Virus record (IMG/VR): IMGVR_UViG_3300035662_000013
Source: an uncultured virus (IMG/VR IMGVR_UViG_3300035662_000013)
Lineage: Duplodnaviria > Heunggongvirae > Uroviricota > Caudoviricetes
Direction: 5' to 3' (one strand)
Length of the DNA stretch: 20,000 nt
The notes under the pieces were generated by a model. The model ran no database searches, was not told the origin of the DNA, and saw nothing but the letters and a program-made list of their open reading frames with translations. Each line of letters starts with the position of its first letter. Position 1 is the first letter of the stretch. Shown here piece by piece: positions 16,923 through 20,000 of the stretch. The position numbers and the translations under genes are program-made.

Positions 16923-17399
16923 ATGAAGTACGACGTTTTAGCGGTTACCCGCAAAGAAGTAGAAGAGGGCGACAACAAAGGTAAAGCTTATTTTGTAGTT
17001 GAAGCCAAAGACCCTGACCCAATGGTTACACGGTCTATTAATTTCCCTGTTTTCCCTGAATCAGAAGCAGTGATTGAGTGGTGGGAAGAAACTGCGGCTA
17101 AATTTGAAGCAGGCGACAAGAGTCGCTTAAAAGCTATCAATGTAGGTCGCTATTCAGTGGGCGATACGGATATTAATCCGAATTCAGAACCACTTCCTGC
17201 ATTTCAGCTGATGAATAGCAAAACTAAGGAGTATGGTGCAGTGAGCACGTCCATGACGGTTCATGTGTTGCTTGATAGCGACGGCAAGCCTCGTGTTAGC
17301 CCACGCAAAGAAGCCATGCGTATCATTGCCAATATCGGCAGGTTCGTGGATAGTCACGTGAGCCAAGAGCCACAGGCTGATACCGAACCACCTGTTTAA
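16923..17399 (+). CDS. Hypothetical protein (158 aa)
   Basis: Clean ORF with a beta-rich N-terminus and acidic Pro-rich tail, followed by a terminator-like hairpin. Confidence 0.8.
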   Translation: MKYDVLAVTRKEVEEGDNKGKAYFVVEAKDPDPMVTRSINFPVFPESEAVIEWWEETAAKFEAGDKSRLKAINVGRYSVGDTDINPNSEPLPAFQLMNSKTKEYGAVSTSMTVHVLLDSDGKPRVSPRKEAMRIIANIGRFVDSHVSQEPQADTEPPV

Positions 17400-17416
17400 T
17401 TGACGCATAAAGTGAT

Positions 17417-17457
17417 GCAGTAGTCGACCATTCGGTTGGCTATTGCTGACCTTTTTG
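17417..17457 (+). terminator. Probable intrinsic terminator
   Basis: GCAGTAGTCGACC-ATTC-GGTTGGCTATTGC hairpin (with G-U pairs), with a T-run a few nt downstream. Confidence 0.55.
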
Positions 17458-17642
17458 TCTAAATTATGGTGTTTTTGGGACACACAGTTCTTTACCTCGT
17501 AACCGCAAAATTAGTGGTAAAATAGTAGTGTAAAATGAGTGGATATTTGGAGGATTATCTGATTAACCCCCAATTCTACCCTTCTACCATATAACCGCAA
17601 AACAACTCACCCTTAGATACGCATAATATAGCCCTCAAAGCT

Positions 17643-17727
17643 ATTTTAAGCCTATTTAAGACACTTTCTATATTAAAACGTATTACCCTACTATAAGTAC
17701 CTTAGTATGCTTAAAACGCTTTAAAAC
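17643..17727. repeat. 85-bp imperfect inverted-repeat element, copy 2
   Basis: Left arm ATTTTAAGCCTATTTAAGACA (17/21 identical to the copy 1 arm) and right arm ATGCTTAAAACGCTTTAAAAC. Same length as copy 1. Confidence 0.5.
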
Positions 17728-17761
17728 ACGTCATTTATTAATCAATAATAACAAACAAAGC

Positions 17762-17983
17762 ATGTTTAATTTAACAGAATTCTCATTATTATTAAGTGGA
17801 ACTTCTTTAATTGCAATACCAATTATAACATTAATGGTATATATATTCATGAAGGTAGACTCAGACGGCATATATAAAATACGAAAGAAAGATATTAGTC
17901 CTATAATTATATCATGGGTAATAATGCTATTGGTGTTTTTATTTGTATTATTTATAGCAAAACCGCATTATATTAATCAATAA
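17762..17983 (+). CDS. Small two-helix membrane protein
   Basis: Two hydrophobic stretches separated by a basic loop. Confidence 0.7.
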   Translation: MFNLTEFSLLLSGTSLIAIPIITLMVYIFMKVDSDGIYKIRKKDISPIIISWVIMLLVFLFVLFIAKPHYINQ

Positions 17984-17990
17984 TAACAAT

Positions 17991-18365
17991 ATGAAAAGAG
18001 AAAGAGCAAAAGATTTATTACCTATTATCACTGCCTATGCAGAAGGTAAAGTAATAGAATGCAGAGATGCAGTAAGAGCAAAACAAGGGTCATGGGAGAT
18101 AGTAGATGAACCAAGTTGGGTTGACACTATTGAATACCGTATTAAACCTAAGCCTAGGTACATACCATTCACATTTGATGACAATTTGGTAGGTAGAGTT
18201 GTAGTTACTAGAGGAGGGGGTAAGGCGCTAATTGTAGGGCAAATAGAAGGAGGGGTATATGTTGGAGCTGGACTAGAGCCAATAACATATATGGCATTGT
18301 TACTTTGGACCTTCTTAGATGGCAGCCCTTGTGGTAAACTATCAGAACCAAAAATAAGTGATTGA
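17991..18365 (+). CDS. Phage hypothetical protein
   Basis: LLPIITAYAEGKVIE...W...EYRIKP pattern, recalled from Bacteroidota phage hypothetical proteins. Confidence 0.75.
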   Translation: MKRERAKDLLPIITAYAEGKVIECRDAVRAKQGSWEIVDEPSWVDTIEYRIKPKPRYIPFTFDDNLVGRVVVTRGGGKALIVGQIEGGVYVGAGLEPITYMALLLWTFLDGSPCGKLSEPKISD

Positions 18366-18403
18366 ATTCACTATTTCAACTAAGTCCAACCTATATGGTT
18401 GGC

Positions 18404-18477
18404 CTATTAATGCAGCAGTTAAGTCACAAGCCTTAACACTTCTAGCTTTTGGAGGCGGGAATTATGCAGAGTGGTAG
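18404..18477 (+). ncRNA. Twister ribozyme (type P1, with P5 and no P3)
   Basis: P1 CUAU(18404-07)/GUAG(18474-77). U^AA cleavage site 18408/18409. P2 UGCA/UGCA. T1 GC. P4 GUUAAG/CUUAAC closing loop UCACAAGC. P5 CUUCUAG/UUGGAGG. Conserved GA at 18469-70. T2 pseudoknot CAC/GUG. Confidence 0.9.
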
Positions 18478-18925
18478 AGAATAACTGGTTTATGTCAAAC
18501 GTACTGTAATCCAACCACAGTCAGCCACTTCCTCGTGGTAGAAGAAATTAATAGCTCGCAAGGCTATTTGAGTTGGAGCTATACACACATATTATCGTTT
18601 CTATGTGTGGAGGATATAGTTTTTAGATAACGAACGGGTTAGTCTAGCTCGTTAATAAATCCCATTGCAGCAGGGATGGGCAACGCTGCAAATTAATCCT
18701 ACACCGGGAACGCTGGAAATAGGTGAGTTCAATACCAGCATAAAAATAATCAGAACTATCGGTACGTAATCGGGTATATAACGGGAGGAAAGGGACATTC
18801 GAGAGCCCAGCCAACTGTCCTTATACTGACGAGATTACCAGTTGCTCCCAGTATTAGTCTTCGTGATTAATAAAACTGCCACAATCTAAGACCTCTAAAC
18901 CTTGTAACGGGAATAGGAAGAGGTC

Positions 18926-18984
18926 GCATTAATGTAGCCACAGCAATGTGAGAGTCCAAAGCCTCTATAAATACAGATGGATGC
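18926..18984 (+). ncRNA. Twister ribozyme (type P1, env22-like)
   Basis: P1 GCAU/AUGC. U^AA cleavage site 18930/18931. P2 UGUA/UACA. T1 GC. P3 CACA-GCAA-UGUG. P4 AGAG/CUCU closing loop UCCAAAGC. Conserved GA at 18976-77. T2 CCA/UGG. Every canonical element is present. Confidence 0.95.
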
Positions 18985-19112
18985 ACTATTTTCTATGATA
19001 CAACGCATCATATGGTTGCACAGAGTTCGTTAAAACGCGCATGCTTAATAATTACGATATCATAGATTAAAGTGTAGCGTATAAATAATATTAATCAATA
19101 ATAATAAACAAA

Positions 19113-19340
19113 ATGGACAAAGGAATTAGTCATTTATTTTTAATTGCAATAGCAATACTATCTTTTGTGATAGTGCTTGGATACGCAAGCTGCAAGCCAG
19201 GAGCAGATGCAGCAGCAGAGCTAGCCATACCTATTATATGTATAATAGCAGTGTTAGGTCTTTTTGAATACTATGGTAGAGACAAAGATGAAAAAGAGGG
19301 CGATGATGAGGACTTAGACCCTAATATGACAGGAAGATGA
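19113..19340 (+). CDS. Small membrane protein
   Basis: Two hydrophobic helices and an acidic tail. ATGA overlap with the next gene. Confidence 0.75.
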   Translation: MDKGISHLFLIAIAILSFVIVLGYASCKPGADAAAELAIPIICIIAVLGLFEYYGRDKDEKEGDDEDLDPNMTGR

Positions 19341-19825
19341 GAAAGTTATTTACTTACATTGCATTCTTGTTTATTATATTATCATGTAATCGCGTTAAAA
19401 ACGAAGACAAGTTAATAGAGAAATTAGGGATTTGGAGCAATTTTGAAGAGGTAAGAGAAAGTAAAAGATATAAATTAAGACAAATGAGCTCTGGTAACGA
19501 ATCATATTCAAAGACAAGTGCTTCATTCTTTTTAATTTGTGGGAGTTACAGTAAAGAATCAGGTCAGGAATATAAAATAAAAGTATTCTGCGAGACTGAT
19601 AATGGTTATAAAATATTTGATTTAGACCCTGAAGATACATATATATGTGTTGATAATAGTCTTGAATCACCAGAATTGTCAATTAGATATCGCACAAGAC
19701 CAAATGAGGAGAAGTGCGCTAATCTAGAGCGTAAAATAGATTGGATAACTACAAAGGTGTTAATATACACACCAGAAAAGTATTTCCCAGAATCAATTGA
19801 GGCATTTAATATTAACAACAAATAA
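19337..19825 (+). CDS. Putative lipoprotein
   Basis: Signal peptide MRKLFTYIAFLFIILS followed by Cys (lipobox). Confidence 0.75.
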   Translation: MRKLFTYIAFLFIILSCNRVKNEDKLIEKLGIWSNFEEVRESKRYKLRQMSSGNESYSKTSASFFLICGSYSKESGQEYKIKVFCETDNGYKIFDLDPEDTYICVDNSLESPELSIRYRTRPNEEKCANLERKIDWITTKVLIYTPEKYFPESIEAFNINNK

Positions 19826-19850
19826 TTATTCTCTAAAACTCATTATCAAA

Positions 19851-20000
19851 ATGAAAAAACTAACAAAAGCAGTATTAATCGAGAGAGGTAAAGCACTTGG
19901 TCTTGATTTAACAATGAAAATGACAGCAGTTCAAATGACTGAAGCTATTGCAGGGGCAGTAGTTAGCGATGTACCGGAAAAAGAAGCTGAAAAGCCAAAA
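19851..20000 (+). CDS. Partial ORF with a possible Rho-N/HeH-like N-terminal domain
   Basis: MKKLTKAVLIERGKALGLDLTMKMTAVQMTEAI... is open to the window end. Confidence 0.55.
   Translation, partial: MKKLTKAVLIERGKALGLDLTMKMTAVQMTEAIAGAVVSDVPEKEAEKPK

What the first reader, a model, noticed from the sequence alone, without database searches (positions are those of the whole stretch)
18404..18984. Two tandem twister ribozymes would excise a 522-nt structured ncRNA, a candidate phage circular RNA
Seen: a ~750-nt ORF-free gap in the early region holds two same-strand twister ribozymes with all stems and both pseudoknots intact. Their sequences differ in a covarying way (T2 CAC/GUG vs CCA/UGG, P2 UGCA/UGCA vs UGUA/UACA), which argues for selection on function rather than recent duplication. 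Established: twister cleavage leaves 5'-OH and 2',3'-cyclic phosphate, the ends joined by RtcB-type ligases, and tandem ribozymes generate circles in retrozymes and the engineered Tornado system. Inference: cuts at 18408/09 and 18930/31 release RNA 18409-18930, which is packed with hairpins and pseudoknots. It could be a protein-independent system that makes a stable linear or circular RNA early in infection.
Basis: partly seen in the sequence, partly recalled or inferred. Interest (0 to 1): 0.92.

Follow-up and report, generated by a model that had tools for sequence, protein, structure and literature searches.

The report
Twister pair releasing phage noncoding RNA
Two self-cutting twister ribozymes in a lake-water crAss-like phage bracket a 522-base gene-free stretch, and RNA assembled from lake samples matches just that stretch, so the phage most likely trims out a linear RNA of unknown job rather than a circle.

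Summary
The 747-nt ORF-free gap (18366-19112) of a freshwater Crassvirales phage carries two same-strand type-P1 twisters. Unit 2 (18926-18984) matches Rfam twister-P1 end to end (52.5 bits, below the 67.2 cut-off). Rfam misses unit 1 (18404-18477) because it lacks P3 and has a 22-nt hairpin at the P5 position. A strict structural descriptor finds exactly these two units (0 hits in 300 shuffles). A covariance model built from 21 other twisters also finds both (34.1 bits, E 7e-8; 69.7 bits, E 1e-18). Predicted cuts are at 18408/09 and 18930/31. Metatranscriptome contigs from two lake samples (one study) cover 18418-18927, 18426-18911 and 18501-18925. None of the 12 RNA contigs bridges a cut site. 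One carries adapter directly at 18418, and a DNA contig runs through. Excision of a ~522-nt RNA is therefore supported. Circularisation is not: no junction, a linear end, and no phage RNA ligase. The insert has no relatives, no Rfam match, and folds no better than its flanks. Other phages show twister pairs around RAGATH-7, GOLLD or small genes. Ribozyme clusters that process phage transcripts have been in print since 2011. This is a new variant with rare natural-sample RNA support.

The parts
18404..18477 (+). Twister ribozyme unit 1, type P1, with no P3 and an extra hairpin at the P5 position. P1 18404-18407/18474-18477. UAA 18408-18410. P2 18411-18414/18465-18468. P4 18418-18422/18433-18437. 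Loop GUCACAAGCC 18423-18432. Extra hairpin 18440-18461. Pseudoknot CAC 18425-18427 with GUG 18471-18473.
   Evidence: Descriptor hit, 0 in 300 shuffles. Independent CM 34.1 bits, E 7.1e-8. Sequence read, hairpin fold. L052 and L057 are natural twisters with the same layout.
18408..18409 (+). Predicted cleavage site 1 (U18408 | A18409).
   Evidence: Position of the UAA relative to the Rfam twister-P1 consensus. The RNA contig starts at 18418 with adapter directly before it. That cleavage falls at the U-A step is recalled from Roth et al. 2014, which I did not read here.
18409..18930 (+). Predicted excised RNA of 522 nt. Its 5' part is the folded body of unit 1, and its last 5 nt are the 5' strand of unit 2's P1 plus the U before the cut.
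   Evidence: RNA contigs 18418-18927 (X18), 18426-18787 plus 18761-18911 (X19), 18501-18717 plus 18701-18925 (X23). The DNA contig of X2 spans 17000-19243.
18478..18925 (+). Insert body of 448 nt, an orphan noncoding sequence.
   Evidence: No Rfam match at E up to 10 apart from chance-level rows. No sense ORF of 25 aa or more starting with ATG. No similarity to other inserts or to 34 plus 43 phage records.
18926..18984 (+). Twister ribozyme unit 2, type P1 with a short P3. P1 18926-18929/18981-18984. UAA 18930-18932. P2 18933-18936/18972-18975. Loop GUCCAAAGCC 18954-18963. Pseudoknot CCA 18956-18958 with UGG 18978-18980.
   Evidence: Rfam 52.5 bits, full model. Own CM 69.7 bits. Descriptor hit. 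About 86% identical 62-nt homologues in crAss-like phages cr7_1 and cr124_1.
18930..18931 (+). Predicted cleavage site 2 (U18930 | A18931).
   Evidence: Alignment to the Rfam consensus. RNA contigs end at 18927 (X18) and 18925 (X23).
17991..18365 (+). Upstream ORF (124 aa, unknown function). Its mRNA would end at the first cut.
   Evidence: Weak PHROG hit of unknown function.
18985..19340 (+). Leader plus downstream ORF 19113-19340 (75 aa, hydrophobic). After cleavage this mRNA would start with the body of unit 2.
   Evidence: Inverted repeat 18984-19000/19058-19074 in the leader.

Best explanation
A transcript of the + strand small-ORF block of this freshwater crAss-like phage carries two active twister ribozymes. 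They cut themselves at U18408/A18409 and U18930/A18931. This releases a linear 522-nt noncoding RNA. Its 5' end is a 5'-OH followed by the compact pseudoknotted body of twister 1, and its 3' end is a 2',3'-cyclic phosphate. The same cuts end the upstream mRNA and give the downstream mRNA a ribozyme-capped 5' end. The released RNA persists well enough to be assembled from natural lake metatranscriptomes. I take it to be a trans-acting phage RNA. By context it is equivalent to the RAGATH and GOLLD RNAs that other phages place between twisters. Its partner and job are unknown. Shown: both ribozyme folds, and RNA contigs that match the predicted product. Inferred: the cleavage itself, the end chemistry, the linear form as the main species, and any function.
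For: Both units meet every structural feature of twister-P1. They differ from each other by compensatory changes in P2 and in the loop pseudoknot. All 12 RNA contigs laid from 3 RNA runs (2 samples, 1 study) are listed. Five of them tile 18418-18927, and none bridges 18408/09 or 18930/31. The X18 contig has 22 nt of adapter directly before 18418. The DNA run's contig crosses both sites. The 9-nt shortfall at the 5' end fits the usual loss at RNA 5' ends in random-primed libraries (my knowledge, not tested). The gap has no terminator-like site, and promoter-like sites are not in excess (8 found versus 5.0 +/- 2.2 in shuffles). So the RNA's ends are better explained by the ribozymes. The same layout occurs elsewhere. 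The complete relative G015 (TerL 63% identical) has Hatchet, RAGATH-6, twister, RAGATH-7 (91 bits, E 1e-19), twister, then an ORF, all on one strand. L034 has a GOLLD match (86.6 bits, E 2.7e-21) between two twisters. Five of 44 twister-bearing loci have a second same-strand twister within 1.5 kb. Print precedent for ribozyme clusters processing phage transcripts: PMC3088659 section 6 and PMC6765202 section 13.
Against: The RNA evidence is from assembled contigs only, from one study. The tool itself rates contig stops as at most a weak hint and says contigs cannot prove starts, ends, strand or level. Unit 2 is below Rfam's gathering score and Rfam does not call unit 1. No cleavage assay exists. 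The insert has no homologue anywhere I searched, so no covariation supports a conserved fold. Its folding energy is unremarkable. The closest complete relatives by terminase (G007, G022) show no twister-P1 hit and no match to the gap, so the element is not conserved in the lineage.
Confidence: 0.7

Rival explanations
1. The excised 522-nt RNA is closed into a circle by a host RtcB-type ligase.
For: Twister products carry the 5'-OH and 2',3'-cyclic phosphate ends that RtcB joins (established knowledge; the Tornado design is recalled, not read). The first and last 5 nt of the product are complementary, AAUGC/GCAUU, and pair in the MFE fold. RtcB is found in 10 of 14 control genomes, including Bacteroides thetaiotaomicron, so a host enzyme is plausible.
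Against: No joint of any kind in 3 RNA runs (table 5). Adapter is joined directly at 18418 in the X18 contig, which means recurrent linear fragment ends. No RtcB or Rnl2-type ligase in G000, G002 or G015. The end complementarity is absent in the 7 other twister pairs (sequences, read by eye), and about 1 in 64 would show it by chance. Perreault et al. looked for circular products of clustered phage hammerheads and found none. Contigs drop rare variants, so a minor circular fraction is not excluded.
Confidence: 0.1
2. The ribozymes are only punctuation marks that separate and stabilise the flanking mRNAs, and the piece between them is a functionless spacer.
For: In other phages, twister pairs bracket small protein genes: L007, L016 and L025. 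Clustered hammerheads flank genes in prophages. The insert is an orphan, is not conserved in relatives, and does not fold better than its flanks.
Against: The RNA contigs recovered between 17418 and 19577 are the insert itself, in both samples. In G015 and L034 the bracketed cargo is a catalogued structured RNA. One ribozyme would be enough to separate two mRNAs.
Confidence: 0.2
3. The RNA is an independent transcription unit with its own promoter and terminator, and the ribozyme-like folds are incidental.
For: Two sigma-70-like matches lie inside the insert, at 18568-18595 and 18799-18827.
Against: Promoter-like sites are not in excess (8 versus 5.0 +/- 2.2), and there are 0 terminator-like sites. 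The contig ends fall at the ribozyme cut sites, not at these matches. The two folds are highly non-random.
Confidence: 0.05
4. The insert encodes a micropeptide.
For: Sense ORFs of 31 aa (GTG start) and 34 aa (TTG start) exist.
Against: No ATG-initiated ORF of 25 aa or more. No longer frame under TAG=Q or table 4. ORFs of this size are expected by chance in 522 nt.
Confidence: 0.03

Closest known systems
Type-P1 twister self-cleaving ribozyme (Rfam RF03160; Roth et al. 2014, recalled, not read here)
   Same: Both units have P1, P2, P4, the UAA cut-site loop, the GUNNNAAGCC loop and both pseudoknot complementarities.
   Different: Both score below Rfam's gathering threshold. Unit 1 lacks P3 and has a 22-nt hairpin at the P5 position, so Rfam's model does not report it.
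Clustered hammerhead ribozymes flanking genes in prophages (Perreault et al. 2011, PMC3088659, passages read)
   Same: Several same-strand self-cleaving ribozymes in a phage transcript, with the proposal that long transcripts are cut into units. Circular products were considered there too.
   Different: Here the ribozymes are twisters, the cargo is noncoding, the phage is a crAss-like lytic type, and RNA matching the predicted product is seen in natural samples.
[quoted passage not shown]
   Same: Noncoding RNAs found beside phage ribozymes with unknown function (33 members unexplained according to PMC11061315). In G015 a RAGATH-7 match sits between two twisters just as the insert does here.
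   Different: The window's insert does not match any RAGATH model. It shares only a split AAUCCA...CGUGGUAGA motif that I picked after seeing both sequences.
GOLLD / ROOL large ornate phage RNAs (RF02032; PMC5737381 and PMC12286853, passages read)
   Same: Several-hundred-nt phage noncoding RNAs of unknown function. In L034 a GOLLD match lies between two twisters and ends 10 nt before the downstream one.
   Different: No GOLLD match in the window. GOLLD was found in only 1 of 43 twister-bearing records. No evidence of ornate structure here.
Retrozymes and the engineered Tornado system (ribozyme-flanked RNAs that become circles; PMC7761336 passages read; Tornado recalled)
   Same: A unit flanked by two self-cleaving ribozymes that leave ligatable ends.
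   Different: No junction was seen. The two ribozymes are not repeats of one another. There is no reverse-transcription context and no ligase in the phage.

Membership tests
Twister ribozyme, type P1 (unit 2, 18926-18984) | Match to the Rfam covariance model at or above the gathering score (67.2 bits) | tested here: not met
   52.5 bits over the full model 1-68, E 9.5e-11. Homologues in other crAss-like phages score 52.6-61.5 bits, also below the cut-off.
Twister ribozyme, type P1 (units 1 and 2) | P1, P2 and P4 helices, conserved UAA, GC, GUNNNAAGCC loop and GA, plus a 3-bp pseudoknot between the loop triplet and the 3' strand | tested here: met
   The descriptor finds exactly these two sites in 27 kb and 0 in 300 shuffles. 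The independent CM gives 69.7 and 34.1 bits.
Twister ribozyme, type P1 (unit 1, 18404-18477) | Recognition by the Rfam twister-P1 model | tested here: not met
   Only a partial Twister-P5 row, 15.7 bits, E 1.6. The cause is the missing P3 and the 24-nt insertion seen in the CM alignment.
Twister ribozyme (both units) | Site-specific self-cleavage | not testable with these tools
   Indirect only: RNA contig ends lie within 9 nt and 3-5 nt of the predicted sites.
RAGATH-7 RNA (RF03159) | Match to the family model | tested here: not met
   No row for the insert at E up to 10 or up to 0.5. A weak 20.9-bit hit lies elsewhere in the contig, at G000:25597-25774, outside the window.
GOLLD RNA (RF02032) | Match to the family model | tested here: not met
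   No row in the window.
Ribozyme-derived circular RNA (retrozyme- or Tornado-like) | Back-joined 3'-to-5' junction in RNA | tested here: not met
   No joints in 3 RNA runs, and an adapter-tagged linear end at 18418. These are contigs only, so a minor circular species is not excluded.
Ribozyme-derived circular RNA (retrozyme- or Tornado-like) | A ligase for 2',3'-cyclic phosphate and 5'-OH ends | tested here: inconclusive
   None in G000, G002 or G015. The host is unknown. RtcB is common in bacteria (10 of 14 controls).

The most novel reading that the evidence does not exclude
Pairs of self-cleaving ribozymes are a general, protein-independent maturation cassette by which phages make trans-acting noncoding RNAs with defined, decay-resistant ends (a 5'-OH behind a folded ribozyme, and a 2',3'-cyclic phosphate). 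The orphan 522-nt RNA here, RAGATH-7 in G015 and GOLLD in L034 would be different cargoes of the same device. That would give the long-unexplained clustering of ribozymes in phage genomes a concrete purpose. A minor fraction may be circularised by host RtcB.
Probability: 0.3. Interest if true: 0.75.

Novelty: new variant of a known kind. Interest (0 to 1): 0.6.

Why it matters
Why bacteria and phages cluster self-cleaving ribozymes has been an open question since 2011-2015. The 2019 review still calls their roles 'largely elusive' (PMC6765202). This locus is a clean case: two different twisters, a noncoding cargo, and natural-sample RNA that matches the predicted product. It also ties the ribozymes to catalogued RNAs of unknown function placed the same way in other phages (RAGATH-7, GOLLD). 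That yields a testable idea: ribozyme pairs define the mature ends of phage noncoding RNAs. Full-text searches for twister with crAss, ribozyme with Crassvirales, circular RNA with phage, twister and RtcB, and GOLLD with twister found no paper describing this. The library lacks most subscription journals, and Weinberg et al. 2015 could not be read.

Tried and rejected
- Rfam at gathering thresholds: 0 hits in the window.
- RNA cover on the flanks: no RNA contig lies on 17505-18413 or 18928-19577.
- Contig depths (11.9, 3.9 and 6.5-7.8 for the insert versus 2.2-3.6 for neighbours) cannot rank genes, by the same rule.
- Relatives of the insert were not found in any of these searches:
  - phage records;
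  - 46 loci, of which 43 match only 18928-18991;
  - the flank proteins, which found none and one weak hit;
  - the unit 1 core 18-mer, whose one hit L049 is a chance match in a coding region;
  - the metagenome scan, which gave 7 unrelated twisters;
  - the viral scan with the degenerate core, 0 hits;
  - 34 terminase relatives, which gave only 18-27-nt matches;
  - 43 twister-bearing records, 0 hits with no positive control.
- Contigs with an identical terminase (L059-L061) do not reach the locus.
- Flanking direct repeat (ACTATTT...ATATGGTTG): 20 of 500 shuffles score as well, so I rejected it.
- Antisense targets in the phage contig: only 11-12-nt matches.
- Terminal 5-bp complementarity: present only here, so I rejected it as a design feature.
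- Dense structure: z -1.77 on the + strand and -2.39 on the - strand. Windowed z is no different from the flanks.
- RAGATH-7 kinship through the split motif: 2 hits in 2000 shuffles, but chosen post hoc and with no other shared architecture.
- Phage RNA ligases: none.
- Promoter and terminator scan: nothing in excess.
- Earlier-findings look-ups by place and by sequence: empty. The eight-word query was also empty.
- Weinberg et al. 2015 is not held.
- Supplements of the 2017 paper, where the RAGATH motifs are described, were not opened.

Full report
**What the window is.**
- The window is bases 818-20817 of a 27,353-b virus record.
- Its minus-strand genes include a crAss-type major capsid protein (Pfam Crass_capsid, E 1.5e-169), a portal and a large terminase. 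This is a Crassvirales phage.
- Public runs that hold the locus are lake-water and freshwater metagenomes: 20 DNA-type runs and 4 metatranscriptome runs from one study.
- From about 16.1 kb the genes switch to the + strand and become small ORFs without annotation. Whether this block is 'early' was not tested.

**The observation.**
- Between ORF 17991-18365 and ORF 19113-19340 lie 747 nt with no + strand ORF of 40 aa or more. There is no long frame under TAG=Q or TGA=W and no tRNA.
- At Rfam's curated thresholds nothing in the window is called.
- A permissive scan of the gap finds a full-length twister-P1 match at 18926-18984 (52.5 bits, cut-off 67.2, E 9.5e-11). The first unit gets only a partial row.

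**Unit 1 read by hand.**
- Its elements in order are CUAU, UAA, UGCA, GCA, a P4 UUAA/UUAA around the loop GUCACAAGCC, a 22-nt hairpin (18440-18461, fold), UGCA, GA, GUG and GUAG.
- It is therefore a type-P1 twister without P3 and with a hairpin where P5 sits in other twisters.
- Two unrelated metagenomic twisters, L052 and L057, have the same layout.

**Two formal tests of unit 1.**
- First, a descriptor demanding all helices, all conserved letters and the loop pseudoknot finds exactly units 1 and 2 in the 27-kb contig, and nothing in 300 shuffles.
- Second, I built a covariance model from 21 other natural twisters, with both window units left out. It ranks unit 2 first (69.7 bits, E 1.1e-18) and unit 1 second (34.1 bits, E 7.1e-8, full model). 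The next hit has E 0.2.

**Covariation between the units.**
- P2 is UGCA/UGCA in unit 1 and UGUA/UACA in unit 2.
- The loop pseudoknot is CAC/GUG in unit 1 and CCA/UGG in unit 2.
- Twisters found by Rfam alone, without my descriptor, show CCC/GGG (the consensus), CAC/GUG and UAC/GUA. So this covariation is not an artefact of the descriptor.
- The predicted cuts are U18408/A18409 and U18930/A18931, giving a 522-nt product.

**RNA evidence.** I laid three metatranscriptome runs (two samples, one study) and one DNA run on 17000-20000. All are assembled contigs, not reads.
- All 12 RNA contigs are listed. Five of them tile the predicted product:
  - X18: 18418-18927;
  - X19: 18426-18787 and 18761-18911;
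  - X23: 18501-18717 and 18701-18925.
- None of the 12 bridges either cut site. The DNA run has one contig running from 17000 to 19243.
- The X18 contig begins with 22 letters that do not belong to the phage. I recognise them from memory as the end of an Illumina adapter. For them to be assembled there, several short library fragments must have ended exactly at 18418. That is what a fixed RNA 5' end a few bases upstream would give.
- No joint of any kind was reported.
- The tool warns that contigs cannot prove starts, ends or levels, and that stops are at most a weak hint. The absence of RNA contigs on the flanks is not counted as evidence.
- What carries weight for me is that both ends of the covered stretch fall within 9 nt and 3-5 nt of two positions predicted beforehand from the ribozyme folds.

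**What the insert is.**
- It is an orphan. It has no Rfam family and no sense ORF of 25 aa or more starting with ATG.
- It has no similarity to phage records, to 46 loci sharing unit 2, to 34 terminase relatives, to 43 twister-bearing records, or to other twister-bracketed inserts.
- Contigs with an identical terminase do not reach the locus.
- The closest complete relatives show neither the twisters nor the gap sequence.
- Its predicted folding is not exceptional: z is -1.77 for the whole insert, and 150-nt windows are no better than the flanks.
- A possible flanking direct repeat, antisense targets and a terminal 5-bp stem were each examined and set aside.

**The wider pattern.**
- The 62-nt unit 2 has about 86% identical copies in the gut crAss-like phages cr7_1 and cr124_1. 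In cr7_1 a RAGATH-1 hammerhead (68.6 bits, above its cut-off) and a weak Twister-P5-model hit, probably a further twister, lie upstream on the same strand.
- A complete relative, G015 (terminase 63% identical), carries this array on one strand:
  - a Hatchet ribozyme (95.2 bits, above its cut-off);
  - RAGATH-6 (124.9 bits);
  - a twister;
  - RAGATH-7 (91 bits, E 1e-19);
  - a twister;
  - then an ORF.
- The two G015 twisters are 571 nt apart and bracket a noncoding unit, as in this window.
- In L034 the 858-nt unit between two twisters contains a full-model GOLLD match (86.6 bits, E 2.7e-21) that ends 10 nt before the second twister. GOLLD was found in only 1 of 43 such records.
- Other pairs bracket small protein genes: L007, L016 and L025. 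L010's 810-nt unit holds only 53-57-aa ORFs and is ambiguous.
- So twister pairs delimit transcript units of either kind, and here the unit is noncoding.

**Mechanism and rivals.**
- Most likely (0.7), the two ribozymes cut a longer transcript and release a linear 522-nt RNA. Its 5' end is protected by a 5'-OH and the folded body of unit 1, and its 3' end by a cyclic phosphate. The flanking mRNAs get new ends in the same step. The end chemistry and the stabilising effect are inferred from what is known of twister cleavage.
- The circle reading (0.1) lacks a junction, is contradicted by the adapter-tagged end, and has no phage ligase behind it.
- A pure punctuation role with a functionless spacer (0.2) fits the orphan status and the ordinary folding. 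It does not explain why the spacer is the RNA that is recovered, or why relatives put catalogued RNAs in the same place.
- An independent promoter-terminator unit (0.05) and a micropeptide (0.03) have little support.

**Comparison with what is known.**
- Perreault et al. 2011 described multiple hammerheads flanking genes in prophages. They proposed processing of long phage transcripts, showed cleavage in vitro and in E. coli, and reported looking for spliced or circular products without detecting them (PMC3088659, passages).
- The 2019 review states that bacterial ribozymes lie close to each other and to phage genes, and that their roles are largely elusive (PMC6765202, passages).
- A 2024 paper notes that 33 RAGATH members remain unexplained (PMC11061315, passages).
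- GOLLD and ROOL are described as phage RNAs near tRNAs with unknown function. The passages I read make no mention of flanking ribozymes (PMC5737381 and PMC12286853).
- A Crassvirales review mentions ribozymes only as introns (PMC10136315). A 2026 preprint says hatchet ribozymes are largely confined to Crassvirales.
- Roth et al. 2014 and Weinberg et al. 2015 are recalled, not read (one search failed).
- Earlier notes of this scan describe similar ribozyme-bracketed phage RNAs in other genomes. They are unverified leads. One of them pointed me to the 2011 paper.

**Verdict.**
The circle is not supported.
- The finding is a new variant of a known kind: clustered phage ribozymes, here twisters releasing an orphan noncoding RNA.
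- Interest is moderate to good, because it offers a concrete and testable purpose for ribozyme clusters.

Noticed in passing
window 17400-17765 (+): A 366-nt ORF-free gap folds far better than chance (z -4.26, 0 of 100 shuffles). It opens with a strong hairpin at 17417-17446 followed by a U-run, which looks like a terminator. RNA contigs of X18 and X23 stop at 17417 and 17414.
   Followed up: partly
window 17740-17761 and 19090-19112: A shared motif, ATTAATCAATAATAA(T/C)AAACAAA, sits directly upstream of the start codons at 17762 and 19113. A 27-nt copy at 96% identity occurs in another crAss-like record (G029:41510-41536) and an 18-nt copy in G014. It may be a conserved promoter or translation-start element.
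   Followed up: no
L051 1880-1945 (same contig, outside the window): A hammerhead-like sequence with type-I topology (stem I UUCCC/GGGAA, core CUGACGAG...CGAAA) lies upstream of an ORF. Rfam Hammerhead_3 gives only 22.8 bits, E 0.3, and the position that should be U16.1 is C, so activity is doubtful.
   Followed up: partly
L051 4898-5075 (G000:25597-25774, outside the window): A weak RAGATH-7 match (20.9 bits, E 2e-4 per genome) lies in a second ORF-poor gap of about 890 nt on the same strand. No flanking ribozyme was found. The tRNA at L051 4135-4206 lies about 690 nt upstream.
   Followed up: partly
L130 1445-2423 (-), record G015: One strand carries Hatchet, RAGATH-6, twister, RAGATH-7 and twister in about 980 nt with no ORF. 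It looks like a ribozyme-punctuated array of noncoding RNAs.
   Followed up: partly
L034 1469-2386 (+), record G064: A GOLLD RNA match (1916-2317, 86.6 bits, below the 150 cut-off, E 2.7e-21) is bracketed by two twisters (1469-1556 and 2327-2386). I found no paper linking GOLLD to flanking ribozymes. GOLLD occurs in 1 of 43 records searched.
   Followed up: partly
L001 1640-2597 (crAss-like phage cr7_1), also L025 and L016: A noncoding leader of about 440 nt behind a twister with a long P5 insert is conserved at 64-84% identity among three phages and contains a T-loop-like GGTTCGAGTCC. Upstream are repeated hairpins with the loop GGTCTGTGAAGATAG.
   Followed up: no
L007 1612-1684 (-): A tRNA lies 68 nt upstream of a twister, inside a run of three same-strand twisters spaced about 1.46 kb apart.
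   Followed up: no
window 18508-18542: AAUCCA and CGUGGUAGA, which are contiguous in the RAGATH-7 consensus, occur here split by a 20-nt insertion that can form an ACCAC/GUGGU stem. There were 2 hits in 2000 shuffles of the contig, but the motif was chosen after seeing both sequences.
   Followed up: partly
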